NCBI GenBank assembly: GCA_050953885.1
Contig: JBMNNJ010000002.1
Span: 124,140-188,139 of the forward strand
DNA: 64,000 nucleotides
Reading direction: 5' to 3'
Source of the DNA: Patescibacteria group bacterium
GTDB lineage: Bacteria > Patescibacteriota > Microgenomatia > 0-14-0-10-38-17
The notes beneath the pieces were generated by a model, which was not told the DNA's origin, searched no databases, and was given only the letters and a program-made list of their open reading frames with translations. Both the position numbers and the translations under genes were made by a program. This document shows positions 6,660 to 57,840 of the stretch, in pieces (position 1 is the first letter of the stretch; every line of letters starts with the position of its first letter).

Positions 6660-6895
6660 AAAATTTAACCGCCTCCTTTTGGAGTAGCGCCATTTCCACC
6701 AGAGGCGGATAAATATTGCGCGCCAGTCCATTCGCTCATTCGCATCTATTCGTTTCCCATTCGTGTTTCCGGCGCGGGCTAAAGCCCGCTACTCCATTTT
6801 TTGGAATAGCGCACTTTAGTGCGCGCCAACAATGAAACAATGAAACAATGAAACAATTTATCACTTTAGCAGTTTAACAATCCAGCATTATGGTT
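6660..6895 (+). repeat. Composite intergenic repeat: large inverted repeat (GGAGTAGCGC…GCGCTACTCC), ATTCG-rich 48-bp element (6728-6770), and CAATGAAA x3.7 tandem with a TTTAACAAT motif
   Basis: The same composite element, in the same part order, recurs at 57640-57840. The ATTCG element alone has 8 copies in the window. Confidence 0.7.
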
Positions 6896-6908
6896 TAAAA
6901 TAGAAATT

Positions 6909-9008
6909 GTGCTGGCAAATGACTTTTTAAGCATTTTCTATTGGTGGTTTATTCTTTTTGGCCTCGGCATTGTTTTTCTGCCCCTGACAGCGAAAATTTT
7001 TGCCCGCTTTTACGATCGCGGCTATCTTTTTGCCAAAGTTTTGGGGTTGGGTATTTTGAGCTACTTCGTTTGGCTTTTTGCCCACCTGAAACTTATTCCT
7101 TTCACTCAAGTTTCTCTTCTGGCCGTTTTTGGAGGAACGGCCGTTATTTCGGCTATTTTTTTAGGCAGGAGAAAATCCCTTAAAAAGAATTTGGCCGGGA
7201 AAAACCTCAAATTAATCTTTTTGGGCGAGGAGTTAATTTTTTTTCTTGCTCTTCTTTTTTGGTGCTTTATCCGCGGTCATAACCCGGAAATCCAATCGTT
7301 GGAGAAATTTATGGATTATGGATTTTTAAATAGCATCCTGCGGAGCCGCTTTTTCCCCCCCGCTGATATGTGGTTTGCCGGCGAGGCGATTAATTATTAC
7401 TACTACGGCCATTATTTAGCCGCTTTTTTAACCAAACTTTCCGGCCTTGACTCCGCCGTTACCTACAACTTAATGATCGCCACCCTATTTGCCTTCACCT
7501 TTGCCCTTACTTTTTCCCTCACCAGCAATCTTTGCTTTTTCGTTCAAAAAAAACCGTCAAAGTCTAAAGGATCACAGCGAGCAACTATTATTTTTGCCGG
7601 TCTTCTTTCCGCTTTTTTAATCTGCTTTGCCAGCAATCTCCACACCCCTTACTATGTTCTAAAAAACGGCGCCCAGAAATACTGGTATCCCGACGCCACC
7701 CGTTATATTGGCTATAACCCGCCAACCAATGACAAAACAATCCATGAATTTCCCTCCTATTCTTTTATCGTCGCCGATCTTCATGGCCATGTTTCCGACC
7801 TTCCCTTTGTTTTCACCTTTCTTGCTCTCAGTCTTAGCCTTTTCTTAAATTTAAAAGATAAAAAAAGGGGGGCTTTAGTTTTGCCTTTTGCCTTTTGCGT
7901 TTTGAGTTTGTCTTTAATGTATATGACCAATGCCTGGGATTTCCCTATTTACCTGCTTTTATTAGGAATAACTCTTTTGGGGACAAACTTAATTCTTTTT
8001 TTCAAAACTAAAAAAACTCCCCCAAAATTCTCCCAATTTCCTCTGCTTTGGCCAATAGTTAAAACCGCCCTGCCTCTTTTGGGCGTTGTTATTCTTTGGT
8101 TTCTCTTCACCCTCCCTTTTAACCTGAACTTTACCCAAATTCCCCAAGGAATTGGCTTAGTCCACACCCACACCCCCATCTTCCAATTTTTTATCCTTTG
8201 GGGGGCGCTGCTTTTTTTCTCTCTTGCTTTTGCCATTTTCTTCTTTAAAAATCCTGATAAAAAGCCAGTTGATTATTTTGTTTCTTTTATGCTCCTAACC
8301 GCCTTTATCCTTCTTTTAATCCCCGAGGTAATTTATGTAAAGGATATCTATGGCGCCGATTATTATCGGGCGAACACGATGTTTAAATTTACTTATCAGG
8401 CTTATGTTTTGATGACCGTCGCGGTGGGTTTTATTATTTTTCGCCTCTTAAAGGCAATTTCCCAAAAAGCAGTTAAAATCTCCTTGGGAGCTCTTTTTTT
8501 CTTGCTTGTTTCTCTTCTTCTTTTCTATCCTTCCTTTTCTCTTCCCGGCTATTATGGAAAAATCGGCACCAAGAATTACCAAGGCCTTTACGGTTTAAAT
8601 TTTCTGGCGAAAAGCTACCCGGAAGATTATCAGGCAATTTTATGGCTTAAAGAAAATGTGAGCGGCCAGCCGGTAACTCTGGAAGCTCCGGGCGACAGCT
8701 ACACCAACTATAACCGCGTTTCCGCTTTTACCGGCCTGCCTACCATTCAGGGTTGGCTGGTTCACGAATGGCTCTGGCGAGGTGGTTATGACGAGCCGGC
8801 AAAGCGCGCCGCCGAGGTCGAAAAAGTTTACCAAAACGGCTCGTTTGTAGAGGCCAAAGAAATTTTAAACCGCTACCGGGTTGAATATATTTTCTTTGGC
8901 GCCTTGGAAAAAGAAAAATATCCCCAAGCCTCCTCCAAGCGCTTAGAGCAATTAGGCCAGCCGATTTACCAAGCCGGGGAAACGGTGGTTTATAAGATAG
9001 AAAGATAA
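6909..9008 (+). CDS. DUF2298 / Chlor_Arch_YYY-family integral membrane protein (glycosylation-associated)
   Basis: 699 aa, many TM segments, AINYYYYGHY motif, and a C-terminal soluble domain with GWLVHEWLWRGG. Confidence 0.6.
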   Translation: MLANDFLSIFYWWFILFGLGIVFLPLTAKIFARFYDRGYLFAKVLGLGILSYFVWLFAHLKLIPFTQVSLLAVFGGTAVISAIFLGRRKSLKKNLAGKNLKLIFLGEELIFFLALLFWCFIRGHNPEIQSLEKFMDYGFLNSILRSRFFPPADMWFAGEAINYYYYGHYLAAFLTKLSGLDSAVTYNLMIATLFAFTFALTFSLTSNLCFFVQKKPSKSKGSQRATIIFAGLLSAFLICFASNLHTPYYVLKNGAQKYWYPDATRYIGYNPPTNDKTIHEFPSYSFIVADLHGHVSDLPFVFTFLALSLSLFLNLKDKKRGALVLPFAFCVLSLSLMYMTNAWDFPIYLLLLGITLLGTNLILFFKTKKTPPKFSQFPLLWPIVKTALPLLGVVILWFLFTLPFNLNFTQIPQGIGLVHTHTPIFQFFILWGALLFFSLAFAIFFFKNPDKKPVDYFVSFMLLTAFILLLIPEVIYVKDIYGADYYRANTMFKFTYQAYVLMTVAVGFIIFRLLKAISQKAVKISLGALFFLLVSLLLFYPSFSLPGYYGKIGTKNYQGLYGLNFLAKSYPEDYQAILWLKENVSGQPVTLEAPGDSYTNYNRVSAFTGLPTIQGWLVHEWLWRGGYDEPAKRAAEVEKVYQNGSFVEAKEILNRYRVEYIFFGALEKEKYPQASSKRLEQLGQPIYQAGETVVYKIER

Positions 9009-9020
9009 ATTATTAAAAAA

Positions 9021-9236
9021 ACGCGAATTAACGCGAAAAATAAACTCAAATGTTAAATCGCAAAACTCAAAACTACAACTTAAAACTCAAATCTGAAAAA
9101 CACTTTTAAGTTCTAAGAAAGATTTAAGATTTGACATGTAGTTTTGCCATTTGCCATTTGCGTTTTGAGTTTATTTATTGTCTTTGAACTTTGATTTAGG
9201 TTTTGATTTTTGCGCTTTGCTCTTTGAGTTTGTCTG
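9021..9236. repeat. Long AT-rich imperfect palindromic element (AAAACTCAAA… / …TTTGAGTTTT family)
   Basis: The left arm is rich in AAAACTCAAAACT and the right arm is its reverse complement, centred near ACATGTAGTTTTG. Paralogous elements lie at 22552, 28585, 35040, 39290, 52236, 61010 and 62396. Confidence 0.7.
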
Positions 9237-9310
9237 TCACCTATAATAATTTAACCATTAAACATCCTTTATCAGAATTATAATCAACTGATATCATTTA
9301 TAATATTATT

Positions 9311-11999: not shown

Positions 12000-12101
12000 G
12001 ATTAATCAAGCACAATGGGCGATTCATGAATCGCCCCTACAGATTTATTTTCGTTTTAAAACAATTTAACAGTTTAACAGTTATTTTGTGTTATTATAAC
12101 A

Positions 12102-16084: not shown

Positions 16085-16115
16085 GTTGCAGGCTTGTAGG
16101 GGCGTATTGCATACG
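16085..16115. repeat. GC-rich hairpin GGCTTGTAGGGGCGTATTGCATACGCCCG (second copy, inverted, at 50521-50556)
   Basis: 8-bp arms GGGCGTAT/ATACGCCC; it sits in the mutM upstream region. Confidence 0.55.
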
Positions 16116-16188
16116 CCCGCAACAATATAGCAATTTAACAATTTAACAATATAGCAATGAATTCCACCGCTTTTTATTTCAAAAAAAA

Positions 16189-20180: not shown

Positions 20181-20229
20181 ATCATTCGCTCATTCGTGTT
20201 AATTCGTTTCCAATTCGCGCTAATTCGCG
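20181..20229 (+). repeat. ATTCG-rich 48-bp repeat element (copy b)
   Basis: ATCATTCGCTCATTCGTGTTAATTCGTTTCCAATTCGCGCTAATTCGCG, followed by TTAACAGTTTAACAC. Confidence 0.7.
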
Positions 20230-20262
20230 TCTTTTAACAGTTTAACACTTTAATTTTATGAT

Positions 20263-21261: not shown

Positions 21262-21292
21262 TCCTTAATTATAACACCGAAGGAAAAGAAAG

Positions 21293-22540
21293 CTATGTGC
21301 GGTGTCCAGGACATGCTATACACTTCATGAGGTTTGGGTATGAGGAATATGTAAGAAGAGTGTTAAAATTGGTGGGTGTTAATTTTGAGAGTGTAGTAAA
21401 GGGGGTGAAAAAGCATGAGTCCTGGAATCCATGGAATCCGGATAGACTACAAGGAATTAAGAAAGATTAATCCAGAAGCAGCCAGACAAACAGTGATTGA
21501 GTATCTAAAGACTAATGGCCACAACATTGCTGATACCGCCAGGGTTTTTAGGGTCAACAGGACAGTGGTTTATGACATCTTGGCAAAAAGCAAAGAGGGC
21601 AATCTTAAAGACAGACCCAAGATACCAAAACACCAGCCCAACAAGACACCAGCCAAGACAGAAGGTAAAGTCATTAAGGCCAAGAACAAAACCCACCTGG
21701 GGCCAAAAAGATTATCACGCTACCTTGAGAAACATGAAGGGATTCTTGTTCCTCCAGGAACAATCAGGCACATTCTAAGGAGGAATAAAGACAGGCTTAC
21801 TTACAAACTAAAATCAAACAAGAGAAGAAAACAACCAAGGGAGTTTGTTGACTGGTATTCAGCTAAACCTTTTGAGATTGTCCAAATGGATATCAAATTC
21901 ATTAGGGATCAGAAAGCCCTGACTAAAAAGCAAATTATTCATCTTAACCAATATGATATTCCCAACTATCAATGGGGAGCCCTGGATGTTAACTCTAGGT
22001 TTAAACTAATTGCTTATTCCAAGGAAAAATCTTGGACTAATGGTTTGTGTTTTTACCTTTGGACTATTTCCTGGTTAAGGTCTCATGGGGTTAAATCAGA
22101 GATTGCCTTTACTGTTGATAATGGTGAGGAATTTGGGGGTAGATCCTGGTTGAAGGTCAAAGAGTTAAGAAAACTGATCAGGGGTTTTGGCTGTAGATTA
22201 ATCCAGAACCACAAAGGTCATCCTGAGGAGAATGCTCATTTGGAAAGAAGCCATAGAACCGATGACGAAGAGTTCTACATTCCCAGGGTCCTACAGATTA
22301 AGAGCAAAAAAGATCTCTTGAATGAGGCCCTGGGTTACATTTATTACTACAACAATGTCCGGGAACACTCATCCTTAGACTATCAAATACCCTACCAATA
22401 TCTGAAAATGCAATTACCAGAGATTGATGATAACATACGTTATGTACAACCGATTATCCTTGATGATGTCTCGGTAAAACTAGGCCCTTGGAGTGGATAC
22501 AATGTCTTGGCACATCACCGCTAAATTATTAAATGGCTAA
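21293..22540 (+). mobile_element. IS481-family-like insertion sequence (single DDE transposase); right boundary approximate
   Basis: The left end TGTGCGGTGTCCAGGA is shared with a truncated second copy at 25667. It encodes a 369-aa HTH + rve-type DDE transposase. Terminal inverted repeats were not resolved by eye. Confidence 0.6.
21415..22524 (+). CDS. DDE transposase (N-terminal HTH + integrase-core rve domain), IS481-like
   Basis: N-terminal HTH (IADTARVFRVNRTVVYDIL). The core has WGALDVN (D), TVDNGEEF (D) and HLERSHRTDDEEFY (E) in an rve-like arrangement. Confidence 0.7.
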   Translation: MSPGIHGIRIDYKELRKINPEAARQTVIEYLKTNGHNIADTARVFRVNRTVVYDILAKSKEGNLKDRPKIPKHQPNKTPAKTEGKVIKAKNKTHLGPKRLSRYLEKHEGILVPPGTIRHILRRNKDRLTYKLKSNKRRKQPREFVDWYSAKPFEIVQMDIKFIRDQKALTKKQIIHLNQYDIPNYQWGALDVNSRFKLIAYSKEKSWTNGLCFYLWTISWLRSHGVKSEIAFTVDNGEEFGGRSWLKVKELRKLIRGFGCRLIQNHKGHPEENAHLERSHRTDDEEFYIPRVLQIKSKKDLLNEALGYIYYYNNVREHSSLDYQIPYQYLKMQLPEIDDNIRYVQPIILDDVSVKLGPWSGYNVLAHHR

Positions 22541-22551
22541 ACTCCCCTAAA

Positions 22552-22672
22552 AAAGTCAAAAGTTAAAATTTAAAAGTCAAAATTACAAGTAAAAACCTAA
22601 AAGTGAAGCAAAAAAACTTTTAACTTTTAAATTTTGAATTTTGAATTTTGACTTTTGAATTATATACTTAAT
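22552..22672. repeat. AT-rich palindromic element (AAAAGTCAAAAGTTAAAATTT… / …AAATTTTGAATTTTGACTTTT)
   Basis: Left and right arms are reverse complements. It lies between the IS right end and the tRNA-Met 3' end. Confidence 0.65.
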
Positions 22673-22685
22673 ACTAGCGCCTTTG

Positions 22686-22759
22686 TGGCAGGGGTCGGAT
22701 TCGAACCGACGACCGGGCGGTTATGATTCGCCTGCTCTAACCAGCTGAGCTACCCTGCC
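22686..22759 (-). tRNA. tRNA-Met (anticodon CAT); elongator type most likely, an Ile2 (lysidine) type cannot be excluded
   Basis: Manual cloverleaf. Acceptor GGCAGGG/CCCTGCC, D-stem GCTC/GAGC, anticodon stem GGCGA/CCGCC with loop ATCATAA, T-arm GTCGG-TTCGAAT-CCGAC, discriminator A, no encoded CCA. Confidence 0.8.
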
Positions 22760-22993
22760 CTCATTTAAAAAACTGGCTTTATTTTATCAAATCTTGTTAA
22801 TTTTACCAAGTTTTTAAGATGGTAATCTGCCGGAGCATTGTCTTTGCTCCAAGACCCTAATTTTTGGCAAGGCCTATCCTTGTGAAACAAAAAGCTGGCT
22901 TCTTCTTAATCTTCCCCGAGCTTAAAAACCCTTCTTTTATATTACCGGGAAAAAGGAGGCATGTCGCAAATGTATTTGACTTATACAAAAAAA

Positions 22994-23022
22994 TTGACAT
23001 TTGGAAAGTCTAAGTTTATAAT
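22994..23022 (+). promoter_or_regulatory. Consensus sigma70-type promoter (TTGACA-N17-TATAAT) reading into tRNA-fMet
   Basis: -35 TTGACA at 22994-22999 and -10 TATAAT at 23017-23022, both perfect, with a 17-bp spacer. The tRNA starts at 23065. Confidence 0.5.
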
Positions 23023-23064
23023 TGGACAAGGTGGAAAAAGGAAATATAAGATTAATTTATGACG

Positions 23065-23134
23065 CGCGGGGTAGTGTACGGCAGCACGTGAGGCTCATAA
23101 TCTCACAGACCAGGTTCGACCCCTGGCCCCGCAA
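23065..23134 (+). tRNA. tRNA-Met (anticodon CAT), initiator-like (fMet): 5' CGCGGGG…CCCCGCAA 3' with a C1·A72 mismatch
   Basis: The acceptor matches the E. coli tRNA-fMet ends (CGCGGGG / CCCCGCA-A). Anticodon loop is CTCATAA. T-arm CCAGG-TTCGACC-CCTGG. The D-loop is short, and the anticodon stem lacks the canonical three G-C pairs. Confidence 0.65.
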
Positions 23135-23141
23135 CTAAACA

Positions 23142-25365: not shown

Positions 25366-25666
25366 GTATCCTCCTTAATAAATATTAAACAAAATCCCCA
25401 TGTGGCTTATGACTAAGTTTCAAATAACAGATAATTTCATTATAATAAAGGTCAATGCACCAGATACAGTTATGATTACAAAAATTCACCAGATCAAGTT
25501 CAACCATTACCGGAATAATGTCCTTTCCCTCCGCCAAATCAATAAATCTCTCAAGATGGTTTATATATTTATATGGGCTAAAAGTATCTAGCGTTTTTAT
25601 TGTAATAATGATTGCTAATACAGTGGTTTCTATTATAAACTATATTTACCGATATTCAATTGGGCT

Positions 25667-26035
25667 TTGTGCGGTGTCCAGGAGATGCGATACACTTCAT
25701 GAGGTTTGGGCATGAGGAACATGTAAGAAGAGTGTTAAAATTGGTGGGTGTTAATTTTGAGAGTGTAGTAAAGGGGGTGAAAAAGCATGAGTCCTGGAAT
25801 CCATGGAATCCGGATAGACGACAAGGAGTTAAAAGATTAATCCAGAAGCAGCCAGACAAACAGTGATTGAGTATCTAAAGACTATAATGGCCACAACATT
25901 GCTGATACCGCCAGGGTTTTTAGGGTCAACAGGACAGTGGTTTATGACATCTTGGCAAAAAGCAAAGAGGGCAATCTTAAAGACAGACCCAAGATACCAA
26001 AACACCAGCCAAGACAGAAGATAAAGTCATTCGCA
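25667..26035 (+). pseudogene. Truncated, degenerate second copy of the IS481-like element (5' ~370 bp only)
   Basis: Near-identical to 21293-21665 with point changes, an in-frame TAA, a small insertion and a 15-bp deletion. It ends ~30 bp from the tRNA-Ile 3' end. Confidence 0.7.
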
Positions 26036-26064
26036 ATCTCGTGTTTACCTGCCCAGCGCACGGG

Positions 26065-26136
26065 TGCGCCTGCTTGGATTCGAACCAAGGACGTCTACTT
26101 TATAAGAGTAGCGCTCTACCACTGAGCTACAGGCGC
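26065..26136 (-). tRNA. tRNA-Ile (anticodon TAT; UAU reads AUA)
   Basis: Manual cloverleaf. Acceptor GCGCCTG/CAGGCGC, D-arm GCTC-AGTGGTA-GAGC, anticodon stem CTACT/AGTAG with loop CTTATAA, T-arm CTTGG-TTCGAAT-CCAAG, discriminator A. Confidence 0.75.
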
Positions 26137-26223
26137 AACGAAAGTTAAAAGTTTTTTAGATCGGACTTCTATCTGCTCTTTATTATACTTTATACTCTAT
26201 ACTTTATACACTACACATTAGAT

Positions 26224-28584: not shown

Positions 28585-28860
28585 CCGGCGGGCGGAGCAA
28601 AATTAAAAATCAGTAATTCGTAATATGTAATAAAAAAAGCGCAAAAAGCAAAACGCAAAGAGCAAAACCTAAATCAAAGTTCAAAAATATTTTTAATTTT
28701 TGGTTTTGGTTTTTGAGCTTGGTTTTGCATTTTACTCTTTGCACTTTAATCTTGTTTTCTCACGAGTTACTAACTTTTTACACTTTACTTTTGAATTTTG
28801 ACTTGTAATTTTGATTTAGGTTTTAATCTTTTCCGCCAGCTGGCGGATTGACTTTTCGTT
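28585..28860. repeat. AT-rich palindromic element plus GC palindrome CCGCCAGCTGGCGG (28833-28846)
   Basis: AAAGCAAAACGCAAAGAGCAAAACCTAAATCAAAG … CTTTGCACTTTAATC arms. It includes the TTGAGCTTGGTTTTGCATTTTA segment also found at 62402. Confidence 0.65.
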
Positions 28861-29417: not shown

Positions 29418-29465
29418 CTCATTCGCTCATTCGCGTCCATTCGTTTCTCATTCGCGTTAATTCGC
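29418..29465 (+). repeat. ATTCG-rich 48-bp repeat element (copy c), ~65 bp upstream of the methyltransferase gene
   Basis: TCATTCGCTCATTCGCGTCCATTCGTTTCTCATTCGCGTTAATTCGCG, followed by AATTTAACAATTTAGC. Confidence 0.7.
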
Positions 29466-29528
29466 GTATTTTAGTAATTTAACAATTTAGCTCAAAAACT
29501 TTTTTTATGAGAAAATAGGAAAAAAGCA

Positions 29529-35039: not shown

Positions 35040-35235
35040 TATAATAAGATAAGCTCAAATGTTAAAACTCAAAACTCAAATCTACAACTCAAAACTTAAA
35101 ACTTGAAAGACAAAAACAGAATTACAATTTAGAAATACAAATATTAAGCCCTAAAGTTTTTTAGTTTTAAGTTTTAACATGTAGTTTTGAGATTTGCGTT
35201 TTGAGATTTGCGTTTATTTTTCGTGTTAATTCGTG
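35040..35235. repeat. AT-rich palindromic element in the divergent nrdJ / helicase intergenic region
   Basis: CAAATGTTAAAACTCAAAACTCAAATCTACAACTCAAAACTT … AACATGTAGTTTTGAGATTTGCGTTTTGAGATTTGCG, the same architecture as 9021-9236. Confidence 0.65.
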
Positions 35236-35247
35236 TCGTAACTTATC

Positions 35248-38200: not shown

Positions 38201-39222
38201 CCGAGGCCTTAATTAAAGAAATCCTCCCCCAGGGGAATTATCACGAACAGGAAGAACGACGGCTTTTTTATGTGGGGATGACGCGGGCGGCCGACTGCCT
38301 TTTCTTAACCGCCGCCGATTATTACGGCGAGAAAAGAAAAAGCCGAATTTCTCCCTTTGTTTTTGAAGCTTTAGGCGAAAAAAACCTTACCAATAAAATT
38401 TCCTCGCCCCTTTCTTTAGCCGAACAGCTTTCAATTTTTAAGTTCGAGGAGACAACGGAAAAAGAGGAAAAGGAGGAAAAGGAGGAAAAATTTATCCTCC
38501 CACCCAAAATTTCTTTTTCCCAACTTGAGACCTTTGAACATTGCCCCGCCCAATTTTACTACGCCTACCTTAAACGCCTGCCCACCCCGCCCACCGGCAA
38601 TCAAAATTTTGGCAGCACGATTCACAAAACCCTTCTTAACTTTTACCAAGCGGTTTTGAATAACCAAGAGGTTAGCCTTGACCTGCTTTTAAGTCTTTAC
38701 GAGAAAAACTGGCTTCCCTTTGGCTTTAAAAGCCGCGCCTGGGAAAAACGGCTTAAAAAAGAAGGCGAGCAAATGTTGAGGCGTTTTTTTAAAGAAGGTT
38801 TTAGTCCGGCCAATAAACCGCTTTTTCTGGAAAAACGTTTTGTTTTTCCCCTTAAGAATTGGCGGCTTTCGGGAGTGATTGACCGGGTGGATAAAACAAG
38901 CAAGGGGTACGAGATTATTGATTACAAAACCGGCAAGGTAATGGCCGATAAGGAAATTGAAAAAAGCCTCCAGATGACCGTTTACGCCTTGGCCGCCACC
39001 GATCCGGGCATTTTGGGCGCCAAACCGGAAGAAATTACCGCCACTTTTTACTTTTTATCCGAAGGGGTGAAGAAAAGTGTCCAGAAAAGCGCCGCCCAGC
39101 TTGAGAAAGGCAGGGAAGAATTGCTTAAACGTCTTGAGGCGTTACAGAATGATAAATTTTTGCCAAAACCGGGCTTTTGGTGCGACTTTTGCCCCTATCG
39201 CGCCCTTTGCGATGCGTGGTAA
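35248..39222 (+). CDS. UvrD/PcrA-like superfamily 1 helicase fused to a C-terminal PD-(D/E)XK (RecB/Cas4-like, Cys-cluster) nuclease domain, interrupted by an intein
   Basis: Walker A GAGTGKTT, DEFQDTN, and motif III split as VADDSQ|intein|SIYKFRGA. C-terminal nuclease region IDYKTGK… and CDFCPYRALC. Confidence 0.8.
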   Translation: MLLNPEQKAAITYKGGPLLIIAGAGTGKTTVITERIKHLILKEKAATDQILALTFTQKAAGEMEERVDIALPYGYTDLWVMTFHAFCDRLLRNEAAQIGLNPDYRLASEAESLKLLQDNLFSLPLNYFRPLGNPTRFLDGLFRHFSRLKDEDVSPEEYLLWAKNLKTEKEEKEKYQELAKVYQKYEEIKVKKGLMDFGDLITQVLTLFRKRPNVLRQYRQKFAHILIDEFQDTNIAQYQLLKLLAPPKTNPDLTIVADDSQCLPKETKITLLKEEKRIDQIKPGEKILTAVGKGYTSVSKVRRVFKRKARVRLLTFELESGQKITVTDNHKMFCYLSSVEKDDRYYLYLMAQKKYGWRLGITRDLSTRLKIEPPADKIIGIGSYASEEEARYYEALYAAKYGLPTVPFNSRPHQAISGAWRDKLFAAINTREKAQKLADDLHLELDSPHCLADGVVRGETERVKINLEMCHRCYPSKYDREGFLPNPQVLHLVRMETSSAKMIAKLKKAGFKLHPTKKGEKYQLSTADLKKAWEIALKLAELTGGVLDKKFAVGKVQRQTRAARIMPASHILVGNYLPVLQNKEIVYKKVIKREEKVATKTVYDLEVERTHNFIANGVVVHNSIYKFRGAAVSNILQFKKDYPQAKMVSLIKNYRSYQEILDASYRLIKNNDPDTLEARLKISKNLKSQRGEGGEVEFWHFNRFDEEAEAVARKIKEMVKEGKYAYGDFAILLRTNRAAQNFIQSLRYQQIPYQFLGPGLLFHQPEIKDLIAYLSFLTNPNDNLPLYRLLRLPPFGLSGRDLAVLNGFAKNAGLSLFEAISIIANPAEKPANLPLPFLSLQGRKTLEKITRLLNRHLELTKKEKSAGQMLYYFLQDSGLLAKMGEVKTVEGERQIKNVARFFEKLRQYELDHEDSSPEAVLSWINLSLSLGESPLASEVDWGEENRVNLLTVHSAKGLEFPVVFLVNLAANRFPLPQRREQIPIPEALIKEILPQGNYHEQEERRLFYVGMTRAADCLFLTAADYYGEKRKSRISPFVFEALGEKNLTNKISSPLSLAEQLSIFKFEETTEKEEKEEKEEKFILPPKISFSQLETFEHCPAQFYYAYLKRLPTPPTGNQNFGSTIHKTLLNFYQAVLNNQEVSLDLLLSLYEKNWLPFGFKSRAWEKRLKKEGEQMLRRFFKEGFSPANKPLFLEKRFVFPLKNWRLSGVIDRVDKTSKGYEIIDYKTGKVMADKEIEKSLQMTVYALAATDPGILGAKPEEITATFYFLSEGVKKSVQKSAAQLEKGREELLKRLEALQNDKFLPKPGFWCDFCPYRALCDAW
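36031..37113 (+). mobile_element. Intein (361 aa) inserted in helicase motif III (GDDxQ|SIYxFRGA)
   Basis: Block A CLPKETKITLL (Cys1), block B TVTDNH, C-terminal YDLEVERTHNFIANGVVVHN, and a +1 Ser. The central region has no clear LAGLIDADG motif; it contains a CHRC pair. Confidence 0.75.
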
Positions 39223-43453: not shown

Positions 43454-43469
43454 TTTAGCTATCTATTAA

Positions 43470-43991
43470 CTATTCTACCTCCCAATCCTTCTCATCAAAA
43501 AAAGGATTAGGACGGGCGAGTTCTCTGATTTGCGCTAAAACTTCAAGGATTTTTTGATTACGATTTTCGGGACTATCACCACTCGCATAATAAACCCCCA
43601 CCAACCAACCTACCGTAATTCTATAGTGTTCGTATTGGTCTAAATTTTCAGGAAACTTATTAGGATCAAGCTCATTTGCTTTTTCAAGATTCTTTAAAAT
43701 ATCTTGAGCTATCTCTGAATTTTCTCCTCCATAGGGTTCATAAATCTTAATAATATCGGCATAGAGTTGTTGCTCTGAAGAAAGAGACGGGGTTGTTGTC
43801 TGCTGGGAAGGCTCGGAGGTAATTATTTGATTCTCTTTTTTTAACTTAAACCAATAAATTCCTTCCCCGATTAGCGCTAAAATCACCAAACCTAACGCCA
43901 AATAAAGAAATATTGGCTTTTTTGCTTTTTCGGGAACTGGAGGAAAAGAAAGGTGGCTTAGCTGTTTTTCTTCCGGCGATAAATTTTCCAT
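43470..43991 (-). CDS. Single-pass membrane protein carrying the shared ~100-aa C-terminal domain X
   Basis: 173 aa with a TM (IFLYLALGLVILALIGEGIYWF). The C-terminus QQLYADIIKIYEPYGG…FFDEKDWEVE is identical to the C-terminus of the 44827 gene. Confidence 0.6.
   Translation of the reverse strand: MENLSPEEKQLSHLSFPPVPEKAKKPIFLYLALGLVILALIGEGIYWFKLKKENQIITSEPSQQTTTPSLSSEQQLYADIIKIYEPYGGENSEIAQDILKNLEKANELDPNKFPENLDQYEHYRITVGWLVGVYYASGDSPENRNQKILEVLAQIRELARPNPFFDEKDWEVE
43473..43777. repeat. 305-bp segment 100% identical to 44833-45137 (encodes domain X)
   Basis: Compared by eye across the whole length; no mismatches seen. Confidence 0.8.
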
Positions 43992-44747: not shown

Positions 44748-44826
44748 ATAACACCTATTTTAAAATTATCTAGGTTCTAAGCAATGTATTCTTATATATA
44801 TCACAATCAAAGTTATAAGTCAAATT

Positions 44827-46381
44827 TTACTTTTCTACCTCCCAATCCTTCTCATCAAAAAAAGGATTAGGACGGGCGAGTTCTCTGATTTGCGCTAAAA
44901 CTTCAAGGATTTTTTGATTACGATTTTCGGGACTATCACCACTCGCATAATAAACCCCCACCAACCAACCTACCGTAATTCTATAGTGTTCGTATTGGTC
45001 TAAATTTTCAGGAAACTTATTAGGATCAAGCTCATTTGCTTTTTCAAGATTCTTTAAAATATCTTGAGCTATCTCTGAATTTTCTCCTCCATAGGGTTCA
45101 TAAATCTTAATAATATCGGCATAGAGTTGTTGCTCTTCCGAAGTTAATTCCGGCGTTGGCGTTGGTTCCGCCTCTGCCTCCTTCCATCCCCACTCTCCCT
45201 TCTCCTCGTCATAGGAAACTTGGGCAAAGTCAACCAGCTCGCCTTGGTCGTTTTGCTCTTGAAGAAGGAAGCTGATCTTGCCTTCTTCTTCCTGTTGGAC
45301 AAGATTCCAAATGGCGGGCATCTGGTCGGGATAGGGAACAACGGGGTTTTTAATCAGCTTGCCGTTTATCTGGTCCACAAAGGCAAGGCCAGTGGCTTGC
45401 CTTAGATCTTTGATTAAGTCTTCTCCTTCTATCCGGTTTAGGCCCACCTTGGTTTGCTCTTTGGTTTGGGGATCAACAAGGGTAATCTCGTTTGCTTGAG
45501 GGTCATACTGATAACCATTAGCTTCTAAGAGGTTTTTAAGAGTCAGGGCATTCTTGTTATCAGAGTCGGCCGGAAGGTGGGTGGGGAGAACGGCTAAGTA
45601 GTGGCGGGGGACGCCTTCCTCGGAGGAACGAAGATAGTCAGTAAAGGAAACTAAGGCGAAGTTAAGCTCGCCTGCGGCAACTTCCTTGTCAACAGTAATC
45701 TCCTCGGCCGACTTGGGTTGGTTAAGCAAGCCGACTACCGTCATCTGGGTTTGGGGGCGAAGGAGAAGGCCTTGGGGGGAGACCCGCTCCGGATATTCTT
45801 GCTCCTTTTGCTCTCCTTCTGAAGGAATCTTTTCTAAAGTTAACCTTGGCAGTGATAAGTCTTTTAACTGGGGAAAGATTATCTCTTCTCCTTGCTTTCC
45901 AGGGGTAAAAACGCCTTCTTTACCCTGATAAGTACCTAAGGAAATTAAATATTTTAGTGAAGAAATAGGATCTTCGGATAATTTAGCAAAATCAACTTCT
46001 TCTCCCCACGATGAGGAAACATAATCCTGGCCAAATTGGACCAGCGACACTTCCTCCTGACCGTTGGTAACAATCTCCTCGCCGCCAATACCGGCAAAGG
46101 CGTTCCTTAAGTAGTCGGCAGTGATCGTCGTGCCGGCAATACTTATTATCTCCGGGGCAGGAGAGGGTTCGGGAGAAAGAATAAGGGTTGGCTCTTTTGT
46201 TTTGACAGGGGTTTGGGTAGGAGGGACCTGTCTCGGTTGGAGAAGGGGCTTTGGTTGGTTCTTCCCCAGAGGGTTTTTCTTTAACGCCGCAGGAGGAAAG
46301 CAGGGCCGAGGCGCCCAAAGCGGTGATGCCCTTTAAAAACTGCCTTCTGGTGATTCCCTTTGGTTCCTTTTCTTCAACCAT
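44827..46381 (-). CDS. Tat/lipobox-signal exported protein with Pro-rich linker and C-terminal domain X; apparent frameshift near 46215-46260 (possible pseudogene or sequencing indel)
   Basis: The N-terminal frame (46381→) reads MVEEKEPKGITRRQFLKGITALGASALLSSCG…, then degenerates into an Arg/Cys-rich frame. The frame of the 407-aa ORF is open upstream of its GTG start and reads a sensible Pro-rich linker (…PPTQTPVKTKEPTLILSPEPSPAPEIISIAGTT…). Confidence 0.5.
44833..45137. repeat. Second copy of the 305-bp identical segment (see 43473-43777)
   Basis: Identical sequence. Confidence 0.8.
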
Positions 46382-50520: not shown

Positions 50521-50556
50521 CCCGCCCCCATACGGGCGTATGCAATACGCCCCTAC
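50521..50556. repeat. GC-rich hairpin (inverted copy of 16085-16115), within a run of GC hairpins at 50455-50560
   Basis: CCCATACGGGCGTATGCAATACGCCCCTACAAGCC. Also CGGGGTGGGG…CCCCACCCG. Confidence 0.5.
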
Positions 50557-50593
50557 AAGCCCACTCATAAACTGATGTTATAATAAGGCCAAG

Positions 50594-52229: not shown

Positions 52230-52283
52230 TTCTCCTTACTAATTTTTCACTTTTGAATTTTGACTTTTAACTTTTGACCTTTT

Positions 52284-53348
52284 TTAATATCTTCTCTCCA
52301 CCATAAAGTCAATCCCCGCCCTGATTTGGGAACGAGCGGGCTCTTTTTTTAAAAAGCCCAAGTTTTCTTCAAAAAATTCTCCGGCTTTTTGGGCTAATTT
52401 TTGAGCCAACTTTTCTCCATAAAAAAGACTGCCGTATTTTTCCATCGCCTTAATCACCCAAAGCGCTTCTTCCTCGCTTTTTTCCTCCCTTTTCTTTACT
52501 AAAATCTTAAGCAGTTTTTGCCGATCTTCGCCTTTAGCGCTTCGTAGAAGGTGAGCCAGCATGATTGTTCGTTTGCCCTCGTAAATATCATTGCCGGTTT
52601 GCTTTTTTAAGCCGGCAAAATCGGAGGTTAAATCAAGCAGATCGTCACGGATTTGAAAAGCGCGGCCTAAAATCTGGCCAAACCGATAAAGAGAAACCAG
52701 CTGTTTTTGACTCCCGTTGGCCAAAATGGCTCCCAAACGCATCGGCCCGGCAATGGTGTAGTAAGAAGTTTTGCCGTCTAAAATGAAAAAGATATCCTCA
52801 TCGGTTAAATCAAGACGATTTTCCCGAGCCCATTTTATCTCCGCCGTTTGCCCCAAAGCGGTTCGGCTAAGCATTTGGTAAAATTCCTCCTCTATTGCTA
52901 AGGCTTTCTTTTGGCCTAAAAGGGAAAAATTATCTGCCAAAATCTTCCACATTAAAATATGCAAAGCATCCCCGGCATTAATCGCCAGCTCTATCCCGTA
53001 AAGGCGATGAAGCGCCGGCTGACCGCGACGCTGGCGGGAATTATCCTCCACATCGTCATGGCCTAAAAGCCAGTCCTCGGAAACCTGCATTGCCGCCGCC
53101 GTTTTAAGCGCCTTCTCTTGGGAAAAACCCATCGCCTCGGCGGTCAGCAAAACCAGTGTTGGCCGCAGATATTTCCCCTGCCGGCGGGGATATTCGGCGG
53201 TTATTTTTTGGTGAAAAGAAGCAAGAGGGGAATATTTTTTGGAAATTTGGCAATAAGAGGGGAGGCGGACCAGGCCGGTAAGATATTTTTCAATTTCTGG
53301 CCAAACCAAGGCTTTTTTCTCGGCTAAAACTTCCGGAAAAGAGAGCAT
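52284..53348 (-). CDS. trans-Polyprenyl diphosphate synthase (IspA/GGPPS family)
   Basis: FARM LGHDDVEDNSRQRRG and SARM FQIRDDLLD. Confidence 0.8.
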   Translation of the reverse strand: MLSFPEVLAEKKALVWPEIEKYLTGLVRLPSYCQISKKYSPLASFHQKITAEYPRRQGKYLRPTLVLLTAEAMGFSQEKALKTAAAMQVSEDWLLGHDDVEDNSRQRRGQPALHRLYGIELAINAGDALHILMWKILADNFSLLGQKKALAIEEEFYQMLSRTALGQTAEIKWARENRLDLTDEDIFFILDGKTSYYTIAGPMRLGAILANGSQKQLVSLYRFGQILGRAFQIRDDLLDLTSDFAGLKKQTGNDIYEGKRTIMLAHLLRSAKGEDRQKLLKILVKKREEKSEEEALWVIKAMEKYGSLFYGEKLAQKLAQKAGEFFEENLGFLKKEPARSQIRAGIDFMVERRY

Positions 53349-53395
53349 CGTTGAAAATTAAAATTGTATTTTATATCTGTATTAAGCTGGGGTAC

Positions 53396-53442
53396 GCGAA
53401 TTAACACGAATGAGAAACGAATGAACGCGAATGAACGAATGC
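53396..53442 (-). repeat. ATTCG-rich repeat element (copy e, inverted), ~50 bp upstream of the polyprenyl synthase gene. Followed at 53443-53476 by nested palindrome GTCATCCTGATGAATCCGCCAGCTGGCGGACAGGATCTG
   Basis: CGCGAATTAACACGAATGAGAAACGAATGAACGCGAATGAACGAATG. Confidence 0.7.
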
Positions 53443-54560: not shown

Positions 54561-54572
54561 TTTGGTAATTTA

Positions 54573-55424: not shown

Positions 55425-55449
55425 CGGGCGGGAAGACCCCGCCCCGACA

Positions 55450-55498
55450 AATTCGTTCATTCATGTTTATTCGTTCGCTATTCGTTCCCATTCGTGTC
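55450..55498 (+). repeat. ATTCG-rich repeat element (copy f, degenerate), ~50 bp upstream of trxB
   Basis: AATTCGTTCATTCATGTTTATTCGTTCGCTATTCGTTCCCATTCGTGTC. Confidence 0.6.
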
Positions 55499-55548
55499 TC
55501 TTAATCTCCCTTGCCAAAAACTCTCTTAAACTTTATAATTAAACTCAA

Positions 55549-56520
55549 ATGAAAAAGCTTCCTCCTTACGACCTGATTATCATCGGCACCGGGCCGGCGG
55601 GGTTAGCGGCTTCTATTTATGCCAGCCGCTACCGGATAAAGCATTTGGTTTTAGGCCAACAGCCCGGAGGAACCATCACCCTAGCCCACAGAGTGGAAAA
55701 CTATCCCGGTTTTCCTTCAATTTCCGGCTTTGAATTAGGGCAAAAATTCTTAGACCATGCTAAAAGCTTAGGGGGCGATATCGAAAATAAAGAAGTGGTG
55801 GAAATTAAAAAAGAAAATAACCATTTTAAAATCATTACCAACAATAACGGTCAATATCAGGCAAAAGCCATTATTATTGCCACCGGCACCAAAAGGAAAA
55901 GTTTGGGTATTCCCGGCGAGGATACTTATTTGGGCCACGGCGTTTCCTATTGCGCCACCTGCGACGCCGCTTTTTATAAAGGAAAAACCGTTGCCGTGGT
56001 GGGCGGAGCCAACGCCGCCTGCTCCGGCGCTCTGCATCTGGCCCGCTTTGCCCAAAAAGTTTATCTTATTTATCGCGGCGAGCGCTTGCGGGCAGAACCG
56101 GCTTGGGTACAAGAAGCTCGGGAAAATCCTAAAATTGAAATAATTTTTAACACCAATCCCCTCGCTATTTCAGGCGACGGGCAAAAAGTCACCGCCATTG
56201 CCTTAGACAAGCCCTATGGAGGGCAAAAAGAACTTGCCGTTGACGGCGTTTTTATTGAAGTGGGGGGAGTGCCGGTAGCCGGTTTAGTTAAAAATTTAGG
56301 GGTTAAAACCGATGAGGATAATTATCTTTTAACCGATAATTCGATGGCTACTAATATCCCCGGCATTTTCGCCGCCGGCGATATCAACGCTTTCCAGAAA
56401 AACTGTCAGCAGGTGGTTACCGCTGTGGCCGAAGGCGCTCAAGCGGCCTTAGGGGTTTACCAATATCTAAGTCAGACTACCGCTTCTCCTCGCCAGCCGG
56501 CAAAACGGACAAAGGATTAA
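55549..56520 (+). CDS. trxB: Thioredoxin-disulfide reductase
   Basis: FAD site IIGTGPAGLAA, redox-active CATCDA, and NADPH site GGANAACSGA. Confidence 0.85.
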   Translation: MKKLPPYDLIIIGTGPAGLAASIYASRYRIKHLVLGQQPGGTITLAHRVENYPGFPSISGFELGQKFLDHAKSLGGDIENKEVVEIKKENNHFKIITNNNGQYQAKAIIIATGTKRKSLGIPGEDTYLGHGVSYCATCDAAFYKGKTVAVVGGANAACSGALHLARFAQKVYLIYRGERLRAEPAWVQEARENPKIEIIFNTNPLAISGDGQKVTAIALDKPYGGQKELAVDGVFIEVGGVPVAGLVKNLGVKTDEDNYLLTDNSMATNIPGIFAAGDINAFQKNCQQVVTAVAEGAQAALGVYQYLSQTTASPRQPAKRTKD

Positions 56521-57181: not shown

Positions 57182-57275
57182 TAAAAAATCTACACTTTCA
57201 AAGTGTAGATTACCAGCAATTATATACTATAGGGGGTTAAAAGTCAAATAACACCCCGCCTGGGCGGGGCGAAGG

Positions 57276-57362
57276 CGGAGGAGGGGAGATTCGAACTCCC
57301 GTGAGCCTTGCGGCTCGCAGGTTTAGCAAACCTGTGCAATGGACCGGCTATGCGACTCCTCC
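57276..57362 (-). tRNA. tRNA-Ser (anticodon GCT)
   Basis: Acceptor GGAGGAG/CTCCTCC, discriminator G, anticodon stem CAGGT/ACCTG with loop TTGCTAA, long variable arm CGAGCCGCAAGGCTCAC, T-arm GGGAG-TTCGAAT-CTCCC. Confidence 0.85.
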
Positions 57363-57401
57363 AAAAAACAATATGCTTATTATAGCAAAAATTGAAAGAG
57401 A

Positions 57402-57453
57402 CGCGAATTGGCACGAATGAGAAACGAATGGACGCGAACGAGCGAATGAAATG
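57402..57453 (-). repeat. ATTCG-rich repeat element (copy g, inverted), ~40 bp upstream of tRNA-Ser
   Basis: CGCGAATTGGCACGAATGAGAAACGAATGGACGCGAACGAGCGAATGAAATG. Confidence 0.65.
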
Positions 57454-57639
57454 TAGGTGTGCCCCTTGTGGACGTTCGACCATGCGGGCCCTGTACCAGA
57501 ACGGTACGGGGCGGGCGGGGATACTCCCGAGGTTCCTGCCTAATCAACCCCCGGAGTTGATTAGCTTGCAACCTCGGGATTAAATGCTTTAGAACATTTC
57601 AAAAAAATTCATTACCGGAAATTACAGGGGTTGGTAGCC

Positions 57640-57840
57640 GGAATTTTGTCTGCGCCAACCAAGAAGAGAGCGCAATAAATTGCGCTATTCCACCTTGTTT
57701 TGGAATAGCGGGCTTTCCGCCAGGGGCGGACAGGTAGCCCGCGCCCACCATTCGCTCATTCGTATTAATTCGTTTCCCGTTCGTGTTAATTCGTGTATCT
57801 TAACAATGAAGCAATGAAGCAATGAAACAATTTAACAATC
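57640..57840 (+). repeat. Second copy of the composite repeat seen at 6660-6895 (TTTTGGAATAGCG inverted repeat + ATTCG element 57748-57795 + CAATGAAG tandem + TTTAACAATC)
   Basis: Same part order as 6660-6895. Includes a GAAATGCTTTAGAACATTTC-family palindrome at 57585-57603 just upstream. Confidence 0.7.

What the first reader, a model, noticed from the sequence alone, without database searches (positions are those of the whole stretch)
6660..57840. Eight-copy ATTCG-rich 48-bp intergenic element, mostly 40-140 bp upstream of gene starts
The consensus CATTCGCTCATTCGCGTCCATTCGTTTCTCATTCGCGTTAATTCGCG is a run of CATTCGN heptad-like units.

Copies lie at 6728, 20181, 29418, 31385, 53396(rc), 55450, 57402(rc) and 57748, and all are intergenic. 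Five are oriented toward, and 40-140 bp upstream of, the next gene start: the DUF2298 gene, the methyltransferase, the polyprenyl synthase, trxB and tRNA-Ser. The other three sit just past the stop of a minus-strand gene.

Most copies are followed within 5-40 bp by a second motif, AATTTAACAATTTAACA or TTAACAGTTTAACA. Two copies (6660 and 57640) are embedded in a larger ~200-bp composite that also carries a TTTTGGAATAGCG…CGCTATTCCAAAA inverted repeat and a CAATGAA(A/G) tandem.

Such a conserved, oriented, promoter-proximal element in a tiny genome could be a shared operator or UP-like element for a global regulator, a MITE family, or a recombination site. I cannot match it to any described element.
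Basis: seen in the sequence. Interest (0 to 1): 0.6.

Follow-up and report, generated by a model that had tools for sequence, protein, structure and literature searches.

The report
ATTCG-array mosaic intergenic repeat module
A 50-bp block of five ATTCG units is a real, many-copy intergenic repeat in a small Patescibacteria (CPR) genome, but it behaves like one module of a fast-shuffling mosaic repeat, not like an oriented promoter operator.

Summary
There are exactly eight ATTCG arrays at the stated coordinates, and all are intergenic. Simulated sequence gives about 0.015 such clusters, and the chance that all eight fall between genes is about 4e-8.

The interpretation mostly fails. I surveyed about 200 further copies from digester, sludge and landfill metagenomes and from related MAGs.
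- The array's 3' end faces a gene start 49 times and a gene stop 46 times.
- Arrays occur between convergent genes.
- Their distance to promoters is not fixed.
- The neighbouring genes share no function.

Strains 88-97% identical differ in array presence, in the flanking modules and in one case in orientation, at about 4 of 9 loci.

The array is stereotyped: five units with core spacing 8, 10, 11, 10. It lies at the gene-proximal edge of an intergenic mosaic of hairpins and short-period repeats. Its 3' end is often 0-15 nt from a stop codon or from an ATG with no Shine-Dalgarno sequence. Paired arrays always lie 5'-to-5'.

Similar five-unit or inverted ATTCG arrays occur in Chloroflexota and in other CPR lineages. 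Rfam, plasmid, phage and literature searches found nothing.

Best reading: a new BIME/MITE/STRR-like repeat module. A conserved protein partner is not excluded.

The parts
6729..6775 (+). ATTCG array, copy 1. It has 4 units; unit 5 is replaced by a ~98-nt insert of other modules.
   Evidence: strain L075 has the intact 5-unit array here
6776..6880 (+). Inserted mosaic: an inverted GGARTAGCG hairpin pair (CGCTACTCCA 6787-6796, TGGAATAGCG 6802-6811), CAATGAAA x3 (6830-6852) and a TTTAACA tail (6873-6879).
20183..20233 (+). ATTCG array, copy 2 (5 units). Its 3' end faces the TrpRS stop 30 nt away. TTTAACA x2 follows at 20233-20247.
29420..29470 (+). ATTCG array, copy 3 (the consensus copy), 58 nt upstream of the methyltransferase ATG.
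   Evidence: absent from strain L146
31387..31437 (+). ATTCG array, copy 4. Its 3' end faces the ribonucleotide reductase stop 33 nt away.
   Evidence: four strains carry four different mosaics at this locus
53392..53441 (-). ATTCG array, copy 5, 43 nt upstream of the polyprenyl synthase ATG. It is preceded by a GATCCTG-TCCGCCAGCTGGCGGA hairpin module.
55450..55500 (+). ATTCG array, copy 6 (degenerate). It is followed by the trxB promoter-like site TTGCCA-17-TATAAT at 55511-55539.
   Evidence: conserved in strains L064, L080 and L151
57398..57448 (-). ATTCG array, copy 7. It ends 10 nt before TGCTATAAT (57379-57387), upstream of tRNA-Ser (57274-57362).
57449..57748 (.). Central 300 nt between the two arrays that lie 5'-to-5'. 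It holds hairpin modules, including CGCTATTCCA (57683-57692) / TGGAATAGCG (57701-57710) and TCCGCCAGGGGCGGA.
57749..57799 (+). ATTCG array, copy 8. Its 3' end faces the GroEL stop. It is followed by CAATGAAR x3 (57804-57826) and TTTAACA (57831-57837).

Best explanation
The 50-bp element (YY-ATTCGCTC-ATTCGYGTYY-ATTCGTTTCYC-ATTCGYGTYA-ATTCGYGT-MTTT) is one discrete module of a non-coding mosaic repeat system. That system fills most intergenic DNA of this Patescibacteria lineage.

**Shown.**
- The module is amplified to roughly one copy per 8-10 kb.
- It is tolerated only between genes.
- It is joined combinatorially to other modules: GC-rich hairpins (some with a 5' GTAG, as in REP elements), TTTTGAM arrays, and CAATGAAR or TTTARCA arrays.
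- It is gained, lost and re-flanked between closely related strains.

**Inferred.**
- Spread and reshuffling occur by recombination or gene conversion between mosaics, and possibly by an unidentified end-recognising enzyme.
- Unit-number changes arise by 21-bp slippage.

**Promoter proximity.** It is incidental. In a compact, co-oriented genome nearly every gap contains a gene start. The module is not a gene-specific operator.

**Polarity.** The module is polar: its 3' end is an outer edge that abuts unique DNA. This is what one expects of the terminus of a mobile or recombining unit.
For: **Multi-copy and strictly intergenic.**
- 8 of 8 copies in the window are intergenic.
- 193 of 198 copies in related contigs are intergenic.
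- Metagenome contigs often end at the array.

**No orientation or promoter logic.**
- The array's 3' end faces a gene start 49 times and a stop 46 times.
- In tandem gene gaps it is sense 37 times and antisense 54 times, and it lies in 9 convergent gaps.
- Gap-type distribution is no more promoter-rich than for gaps without arrays.
- The array ends 10 nt before the TGCTATAAT upstream of tRNA-Ser (16 nt before its TATAAT hexamer). At trxB it ends 10 nt before the TTGCCA -35 hexamer, 33 nt before TATAAT.
- Neighbours are functionally diverse.

**Turnover between strains 88-97% identical.**
- A 98-nt module swap lies inside the copy at 6729.
- The array is absent from L146 at the 29420 locus.
- Four different mosaics occupy the 31387 locus.
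- L176 has an array at window position ~12.0 kb, where the window has a GTAG hairpin.

**Mosaic context.** The same array is joined to at least 7 different upstream modules. Many other repeat families occupy the window's gaps.

**Polarity.**
- The 3' end lies a median 14 nt from a stop or 42 nt from a start. The 5' side is a median ~185 nt from the next gene.
- Junctions are sharp.
- In 6 of 7 array pairs of opposite orientation the 5' ends face each other; the seventh (L049) is convergent.

**Not a known RNA.** Rfam gives nothing, and folding finds only weak small hairpins.
Against: **Mobility is not demonstrated.**
- No mobilising enzyme was identified.
- No target-site duplication and no clean empty site were found.
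- Most copies are solo, so the array is not a classical MITE.

**Signs of sequence-level constraint.**
- 126 of 157 arrays have exactly five units, and 114 have spacing 8, 10, 11, 10.
- ATTCG cores are about 99% invariant even in units that were not part of the search pattern, while a few spacer sites are about 50:50.
- Roseiflexus carries a five-unit ATTCG array of almost the same span, and inverted versions occur in several other lineages.
- A purely selfish repeat need not show any of this.

**Locus-level conservation.**
- Orthologous arrays diverge 4.0%, no faster than the mostly coding surroundings.
- The trxB and tRNA-Ser copies are retained in all strains seen and sit next to good promoters.

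**Limits of the gene calls.** Gene calls in the census are crude: ORFs of at least 90 aa.
Confidence: 0.6

Rival explanations
1. The array is a binding platform for a DNA-binding protein: five ATTCG sites about one helical turn apart on one face of the duplex. The protein would be conserved in Patescibacteria and Chloroflexota. It would act independently of orientation, for example as a nucleoid-associated or boundary protein or as a transcriptional roadblock at gene edges. The repeat would be maintained by selection for that binding.
For: - The five-unit architecture is stereotyped, and expansions come in 21-bp (two-turn) steps.
- Cores are invariant while spacers vary.
- A five-unit array of nearly equal span occurs in Roseiflexus. 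Inverted arrays with mirrored 8/10 spacing occur in Oscillochloris, Anaerolineae, Aquidulcis, Saccharibacteria and others.
- The array sits at ORF boundaries in either orientation.
- Orthologous copies are no more diverged than coding DNA.
Against: - No candidate protein was found.
- The first spacing is 8 bp, which is off-phase.
- Arrays are gained and lost between near-identical strains.
- The variable sites could simply mark master-copy subfamilies.
- The cross-phylum similarity was partly forced by the search pattern.
Confidence: 0.2
2. The array is a true MITE-like transposable element, and the arrays are its terminal inverted repeats, with multiple subterminal transposase-binding pentamers. 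The complete form is array(-) - cargo hairpins - array(+). Solo arrays are one-ended remnants or products of one-ended transposition.
For: - In 6 of 7 array pairs of opposite orientation the 3' ends point outward; the exception is a convergent pair in L049. The outward pairs include window 57398(-)/57749(+), L060 and L094. In other lineages they include a 150-bp element that exactly fills the mraZ-rsmH gap.
- The outer boundary is sharp and abuts stop or start codons.
- Cargo between the arrays is variable.
Against: - Only about 3 of about 95 distinct contexts in the window's lineage have both ends.
- No target-site duplication is visible at any junction examined.
- No transposase with matching ends was found; the only IS-like gene in the window (rve_3, 21415-22524) is not flanked by arrays.
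- The element is absent from plasmid and phage collections.
Confidence: 0.12
3. The array is an oriented UP-like element or operator, or a portable promoter and leader, that controls the downstream gene through a global regulator.
For: - 5 of 8 window copies point at a gene start 35-142 nt away.
- The trxB and tRNA-Ser copies lie directly upstream of strong promoter-like sites.
- The tail TTAACA matches the -35 consensus TTGACA at 5 of 6 positions.
- Many genes without a Shine-Dalgarno sequence start 5-30 nt after the array, so their transcripts must begin in or before it.
Against: - Orientation is 49 starts to 46 stops.
- Arrays occur in convergent gaps, and divergent gaps are not enriched.
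- There is no fixed register to -35 or -10.
- The base that would make a -10 (M = A) is not enriched in start-facing copies.
- The neighbours form no regulon.
- Turnover at orthologous promoters is rapid.
Confidence: 0.06
4. The array acts at the RNA level. It would be a protein-binding leader (CAUUCG repeats) or a 3'UTR element (CGAAUG repeats) of the adjacent gene.
For: Arrays abut ORF ends so closely that they are probably transcribed with the neighbouring gene.
Against: - The two orientations would give unrelated RNAs in equal numbers.
- There is no Rfam match.
- Predicted folding is weak: z-scores near -2 from two tiny hairpins.
Confidence: 0.03

Closest known systems
REP / BIME (bacterial interspersed mosaic elements) of enterobacteria and pseudomonads
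   Same: - Strictly extragenic and many-copy.
- Built from a small vocabulary of modules joined in variable combinations.
- Often tight against stop codons.
- Variable between strains.
- Neighbouring modules here include GTAG-plus-GC-palindrome hairpins, like REPs.
   Different: - The ATTCG array itself is not palindromic; it is five direct, non-identical units.
- No RAYT (REP-associated tyrosine transposase) gene was looked for or found.
- The array has a strict polarity, with its 3' edge outward.
MITEs (for example Correia/NEMIS, RUP, Nezha)
   Same: - Short, non-coding, amplified and intergenic.
- Sharp outer ends.
- Paired copies are inverted with the same end outward.
- They can carry or sit next to promoters.
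   Different: - Most copies are solo.
- No target-site duplication was seen.
- No related autonomous insertion sequence was found.
- The ends are made of repeated pentamers.
STRR (short tandemly repeated repetitive sequences) of heterocystous cyanobacteria; BOX elements of pneumococcus
   Same: - Short-period repeats that populate intergenic DNA.
- Modular make-up, as in boxA-B-C.
- Function unknown or only modulatory.
   Different: - STRRs are identical tandem heptamers. Here the units are 8-11 bp, each with its own conserved spacer, and the whole 50-mer is the copied unit.
- BOX elements fold into stable hairpins; this array does not.
Phased direct-repeat protein sites (PhoB/OmpR boxes, SARP heptads, plasmid iterons, R1 parC 5+5 repeats)
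   Same: - Short cores repeated about every 10-11 bp.
- A 21-bp two-unit super-period.
- Five repeats per cluster, as in parC.
- Sometimes directly upstream of a -35 hexamer.
   Different: - No fixed distance or orientation to promoters.
- About 100 copies per genome at unrelated genes.
- Rapid gain and loss.
- Spacers are conserved as well as cores.

Membership tests
MITE | Terminal inverted repeats on each copy | tested here: not met
   Most arrays are solo. Only about 3 distinct loci in the lineage have two arrays in inverted orientation. Inverted pairs are common in other lineages.
MITE | Target-site duplication flanking the insertion | tested here: not met
   No duplication was seen at the junctions inspected in strain comparisons or at palindromic copies. 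No clean empty site was available, so this is a weak test.
MITE | Short, non-coding, multi-copy and polymorphic between strains | tested here: met
MITE | Related autonomous element with matching ends | tested here: inconclusive
   None in the window; the rve_3 gene at 21415-22524 is not flanked by arrays. None in plasmid or phage collections. The whole genome was not available.
REP/BIME | Imperfect GC-rich palindrome with a conserved 5' GT(A/G)G | tested here: not met
   The array has no palindrome. Adjacent modules such as GTAGGGGCG...CGCCCCTAC and GGARTAGCG-hairpin do have this anatomy.
REP/BIME | Extragenic mosaic of modules in variable combinations | tested here: met
REP/BIME | Cognate RAYT (Y1 transposase) in the genome | not tested
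   Only 64 kb plus fragments were available, and no targeted search was made.
UP element / operator of a regulon | Fixed position and orientation relative to -35/-10 or the transcription start | tested here: not met
   Orientation is 49 starts to 46 stops. The register differs at the tRNA-Ser and trxB promoters. Start distances range from -5 to more than 100 nt.
UP element / operator of a regulon | Conserved at orthologous promoters; functionally coherent targets | tested here: not met
   The array is lost or replaced at about 4 of 9 loci in strains 88-97% identical. Neighbours are diverse, and pilin enrichment is weak (OR 2.3, p=0.08).
STRR-type simple tandem repeat | Identical short units (heptamers) in tandem, with variable number | tested here: not met
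   Units are 8, 10, 11 and 10 bp with unit-specific spacers. 126 of 157 arrays have exactly 5 units.
Structured RNA family (Rfam) | Match to a curated covariance model, or a stable conserved fold | tested here: not met
   No match at gathering or E-value thresholds. Folding finds only two 3-4-bp hairpins, z about -2.

The most novel reading that the evidence does not exclude
The five-unit ATTCG array is the recognition platform of an as yet unknown DNA-binding protein shared by Patescibacteria and Chloroflexota. It would be a polar 'gene-boundary' element set directly against start and stop codons, either solo or as 5'-to-5' pairs. Its dispersal through intergenic DNA would be driven or maintained by that protein rather than being purely selfish.
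Probability: 0.15. Interest if true: 0.75.

Novelty: new variant of a known kind. Interest (0 to 1): 0.45.

Why it matters
**Genome biology of CPR bacteria.** Their genomes are usually described as minimal and streamlined. Here much of the scarce intergenic DNA is a fast-evolving mosaic of repeat modules, and this array is the most stereotyped of them.

**Practical consequences.**
- The array breaks metagenome assemblies.
- It marks hot spots of strain-level rearrangement.
- It could serve as a strain-typing marker.

**Open questions.**
- Similar five-unit or inverted ATTCG arrays in Chloroflexota give a concrete handle on whether the two groups share a DNA-binding or DNA-mobilising activity. 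Some phylogenies place these phyla as relatives.
- Many genes without a Shine-Dalgarno sequence start a few nucleotides after the array. This raises the question of how such genes are transcribed and translated.

Tried and rejected
**Known RNA family.** Rfam at gathering score on the whole window, and at E-value threshold on the tRNA-Ser/GroEL gap and on 9 loci, gave only tRNAs and noise.

**RNA fold of the array with and without flanks.** Only weak folding was found.

**Fixed promoter geometry or a portable -10.** Rejected.

**Regulon of type IV pilus genes.** Pilin-like neighbours are frequent, at 11 of 54 small neighbours. Enrichment over non-neighbours is weak (OR 2.3, p=0.08), and all orientations occur.

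**Replication-linked polarity.** The ATTCG strand lies on the C-rich strand 103 times versus 60. This is a modest bias from non-independent copies and was not pursued.

**Plasmid, phage or virus origin.** There is no match in PLSDB or INPHARED, and one chance hit inside a coding region in IMG/VR.

**Small selfish genes as partners in the window.** Only one 23S_rRNA_IVP gene is present, and it is not next to an array.

**Literature.** Searches for the sequence, for ATTCG direct repeats, and for CPR plus REP elements found nothing relevant.

**Extending the census in the same genome.** About 16 kb beyond the window ends, taken from sister strains, held no further arrays.


Full report
**1. Observation**

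A scan for clusters of the pentamer ATTCG or its complement finds exactly eight in the 64-kb window. They are at 6730, 20184, 29421, 31388, 55451 and 57750 on the + strand, and at 53397-53440 and 57404-57447 on the - strand (sequences). An nhmmer profile built from these eight recovers the same eight and nothing else.

First-order Markov simulations give 0.015 clusters per window.

The window is 88% coding. All eight copies lie in 7 of the 34 gaps of at least 60 nt, so the chance of this is about 4e-8.

DUF2298, a methyltransferase, polyprenyl synthase, TrxB and tRNA-Ser lie downstream of five copies. The stop codons of TrpRS, ribonucleotide reductase and GroEL face the other three.

The TTTAACA-type tail follows 5 of 8 copies.

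One correction: the units are not heptads. Core-to-core spacing is 8, 10, 11, 10 bp.

**2. Whose genome, and how widespread**

Exact-protein look-ups place the window in a 'Patescibacteria group bacterium' MAG on a 247-kb contig. Sister strains come from biogas and digester samples.

A pattern covering units 1-3 hit 46 loci among GTDB species genomes and at least 120 metagenome contigs from digesters, sludge and landfill.
- Near-identical five-unit arrays occur in a Shapirobacteria MAG. They also occur on short contigs binned as Paceibacterota, 'Omnitrophota' and 'Desulfotomaculum', which are probably mis-binned relatives.
- A Curtissbacteria copy sits between grpE and dnaK.
- Related arrays occur in bona fide Chloroflexota on long contigs: Roseiflexus (21 matches in one MAG, nearly all with five units and spacing 8, 10, 8, 12), Chloroflexus, an Oscillochloris isolate, Anaerolineae and Aquidulcis.
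- They also occur in Saccharibacteria and in an unclassified bin.

About 8 hits have only the three pattern-specified units and look like chance. The 20 specified bases would give roughly one chance match in this collection (my own estimate).

The array is absent from plasmid and phage collections. IMG/VR gave a single chance hit inside a coding region. Rfam has no matching family. I found no description in the searchable literature.

**3. Tests of the regulatory reading**

With the nhmmer profile I collected 231 copies, of which 198 are of the window's type. Gene calls were crude: greedy ORFs of at least 90 aa.

- *Position.* 193 of 198 copies are intergenic.
- *Orientation.* It is unrelated to genes. 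In tandem gene pairs the array is sense 37 times and antisense 54 times, and 9 copies lie between convergent genes. After collapsing to 95 independent downstream contexts, the 3' end faces a gene start 49 times and a gene stop 46 times.
- *Gap type.* Gaps with arrays are tandem 73, convergent 8, divergent 12. Gaps of at least 60 nt without arrays are 94, 18 and 37. Arrays therefore do not prefer promoter-rich gaps.
- *Promoter register.* It is not fixed. At tRNA-Ser the array ends 10 nt before an extended -10, TGCTATAAT at 57379-57387. At trxB it ends 10 nt before the TTGCCA of TTGCCA-17-TATAAT at 55511-55539, 33 nt before TATAAT.
- *Possible -10 base.* The base that would create a TAnnnT -10 at the array's end is no more frequent in start-facing copies.
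- *Neighbour function.* Neighbours are diverse. Type IV pilin genes are frequent neighbours, but enrichment is weak (OR 2.3, p=0.08) and occurs in every orientation.

The window's 5-of-8 'toward a start' pattern is therefore what a random orientation would often give in a genome where nearly every gap contains a start.

**4. Turnover between strains**

Thirteen contigs from strains 88-98% identical overlap the window.
- At 6729, strain L075 has the intact five-unit array. In the window, unit 5 is replaced by a 98-nt block made of an inverted GGARTAGCG hairpin pair plus CAATGAAA x3.
- At 29420, L111 and L122 keep the array. L146 lacks it and carries an extra gene there.
- At 31387, four strains have four different mosaics: the window, L146 with different flanks, L122 with no array within 250 nt, and L125 with a different neighbouring gene.
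- L176 has a full mosaic with an array at window position ~12.0 kb. The window has a GTAG hairpin there, plus what looks like the last-unit remnant of an array.
- Downstream of GroEL, L153 appears to have the array in the opposite orientation. This was seen in the listing, which was cut mid-row, and was not checked further.
- The trxB array is retained in L064, L080 and L151, and the tRNA-Ser arrays in L080 and L151.

Where arrays are orthologous they differ by 4.0%. That is similar to the mostly coding surroundings, which differ by 1.4-10.5%.

This is the behaviour of a recombining or mobile repeat, not of a conserved cis-regulatory site.

**5. Anatomy and regularities that still need explaining**

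The array is very stereotyped.
- 126 of 157 arrays have five units, and 114 have spacing 8, 10, 11, 10.
- Longer arrays add (11, 10), which is 21 bp.
- In units 4 and 5, which were not part of the search pattern, the ATTCG cores are about 99% invariant.
- A handful of spacer positions are roughly 50:50 C/T.
- This pattern fits selection on the cores, but it also fits a few master-copy subfamilies.

Both boundaries are sharp. At least seven different modules precede it:
- GATCCTGA...TCAGGATGAC hairpins
- TTTTGAM arrays ending in GCGCCAG
- GGARTAGCG hairpins with compensatory stem changes
- GTAG-GC palindromes
- others.

There is a strong polarity.
- The 3' end lies a median 14 nt from a stop codon or 42 nt from a start. 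The 5' side is a median ~185 nt from the next gene.
- In many independent contexts the stop codon (tta or cta on the array strand) lies 0-3 nt after ...CGYGTMTT, so the element's tail supplies or overlaps the stop.
- In others an ATG with no Shine-Dalgarno sequence lies 5-30 nt after it.
- When two arrays share a gap in opposite orientation they lie 5'-to-5' with the 3' ends outward. Examples are window 57398(-)/57749(+), L060 and L094. One convergent pair (L049) is the exception.
- In other lineages inverted partners are likewise upstream in about 10 taxa and downstream in one. One of these is a ~150-bp palindromic element that exactly fills the mraZ-rsmH gap.

The array therefore behaves as the outer terminus of a larger unit. 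I could find no target-site duplications, no clean empty site and no enzyme.

**6. Interpretation**

*Shown:*
- a real, amplified, strictly intergenic, polar, five-unit module
- combinatorial association with other modules
- rapid gain, loss and re-flanking
- no orientation, distance or functional relationship to the neighbouring genes.

*Inferred:* it is a module of a BIME/MITE/STRR-like mosaic repeat system. It spreads by recombination or gene conversion, and perhaps by an unidentified end-recognising enzyme. Promoter proximity is incidental.

*Main rival:* the invariant cores, the fixed five-unit architecture and the Chloroflexota counterparts may reflect a conserved DNA-binding partner acting at gene boundaries. 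The two readings are not exclusive, because REP elements are both selfish and bound by host proteins (my own knowledge, not tested here).

*Weakly supported:* the operator/UP reading and an RNA-level role.

**7. Novelty**

I found no described family that matches.
- It fails the defining tests for a MITE (terminal inverted repeats, target-site duplication).
- It fails the test for REP (palindrome).
- It fails the test for STRR (identical heptamers).
- It shares the general biology of interspersed mosaic repeats.

I rate it a new variant of a known kind. It is moderately interesting in itself. It would be more interesting if the cross-phylum arrays prove to share a protein partner.

Noticed in passing
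window 16091-16119 and 50533-50561; also ~12010-12040; many loci: REP-like modules: GTAG followed by a GC-rich palindrome (GGCTTGTAGGGGCGTATTGCATACGCCCG, two arms 100% complementary). Loop and stem variants elsewhere keep the pairing. The GGARTAGCG-hairpin module likewise shows compensatory stem changes between copies. This suggests a RAYT-type system that was not searched for.
   Followed up: partly
window 9021-9236, 22547-22672, 28638-28831, 35046-35236, 52240-52277, 61029-61066, 62009-62447: A second abundant repeat family: arrays of TTTTGAM / TTTGCG units with a period of about 7-8 nt. They are often arranged as long inverted pairs, for example 35046-35108 versus 35158-35220, and 81-nt arms at 9021 and 35156 that are 85% complementary.
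   Followed up: no
window 28832, 39462, 53457, 61274: A recurrent hairpin module, TCCGCCAGCTGGCGGA, with four copies in the window. It is also common next to arrays in related contigs.
   Followed up: no
window 21292-21460 / 25664-25832 and 21513-21638 / 25885-26010; genes 21415-22524 and 26224-28560; tRNAs 22685-23135 and 26062-26137: Duplicated 169-nt and 126-nt segments (96-100% identical) lie 4372 nt apart around an rve_3 integrase-core gene. Nearby are a TraG/T4SS-coupling-like gene, two tRNA-Met genes and a tRNA-Ile(TAT) gene. This looks like an IS or integrated-element region.
   Followed up: no
window 43466-43765 and 44826-45125: A 300-nt direct repeat, 99% identical. It covers the 3' ends of two minus-strand ORFs lying 1.4 kb apart (43470-43991 and 44827-46050).
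   Followed up: no
window 31470-34922 and 35248-39222: Inteins are present in the ribonucleotide reductase (with a LAGLIDADG domain) and in an AddA-like UvrD/PD-(D/E)XK helicase-nuclease.
   Followed up: no
related loci, e.g. L019, L039, L049, L074, L099, L165; window 55540-55551, 53346-53360: Many genes start 5-30 nt after the array, or a few nt after a -10 hexamer, with no Shine-Dalgarno sequence. The HU gene has a strong AAGGAGGTG. This suggests frequent leaderless or SD-independent initiation in this lineage.
   Followed up: partly
L015 1240-1710, L033 6653-7117, L038 4122-4640: In three of the non-Roseiflexus Chloroflexota loci the gene adjoining the ATTCG array is a small PDDEXK_3 ('GxxExxY') nuclease-family gene. 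The window has a 23S_rRNA_IVP gene at 62040-62429, flanked by TTTTGA-type modules but not by an ATTCG array.
   Followed up: partly
L169-L172 (contigs start ~147 nt upstream of trxB); many L047-L166 contigs end at arrays: Short-read metagenome contigs repeatedly break at the array. This fits a high-copy repeat, and it is a practical cause of fragmented CPR bins and of mis-binned short contigs, such as those labelled 'Omnitrophota' and 'Desulfotomaculum'.
   Followed up: partly
L002, L008, L011, L023, L028 (Roseiflexus MAG): In Roseiflexus the five-unit ATTCG array alternates with purine-rich GAGGCRMGAGG tracts in tandem composites of about 85-100 bp. It sits near CCCTAAC-type heptamer repeats. 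This is an STRR-like intergenic landscape in a second phylum.
   Followed up: no
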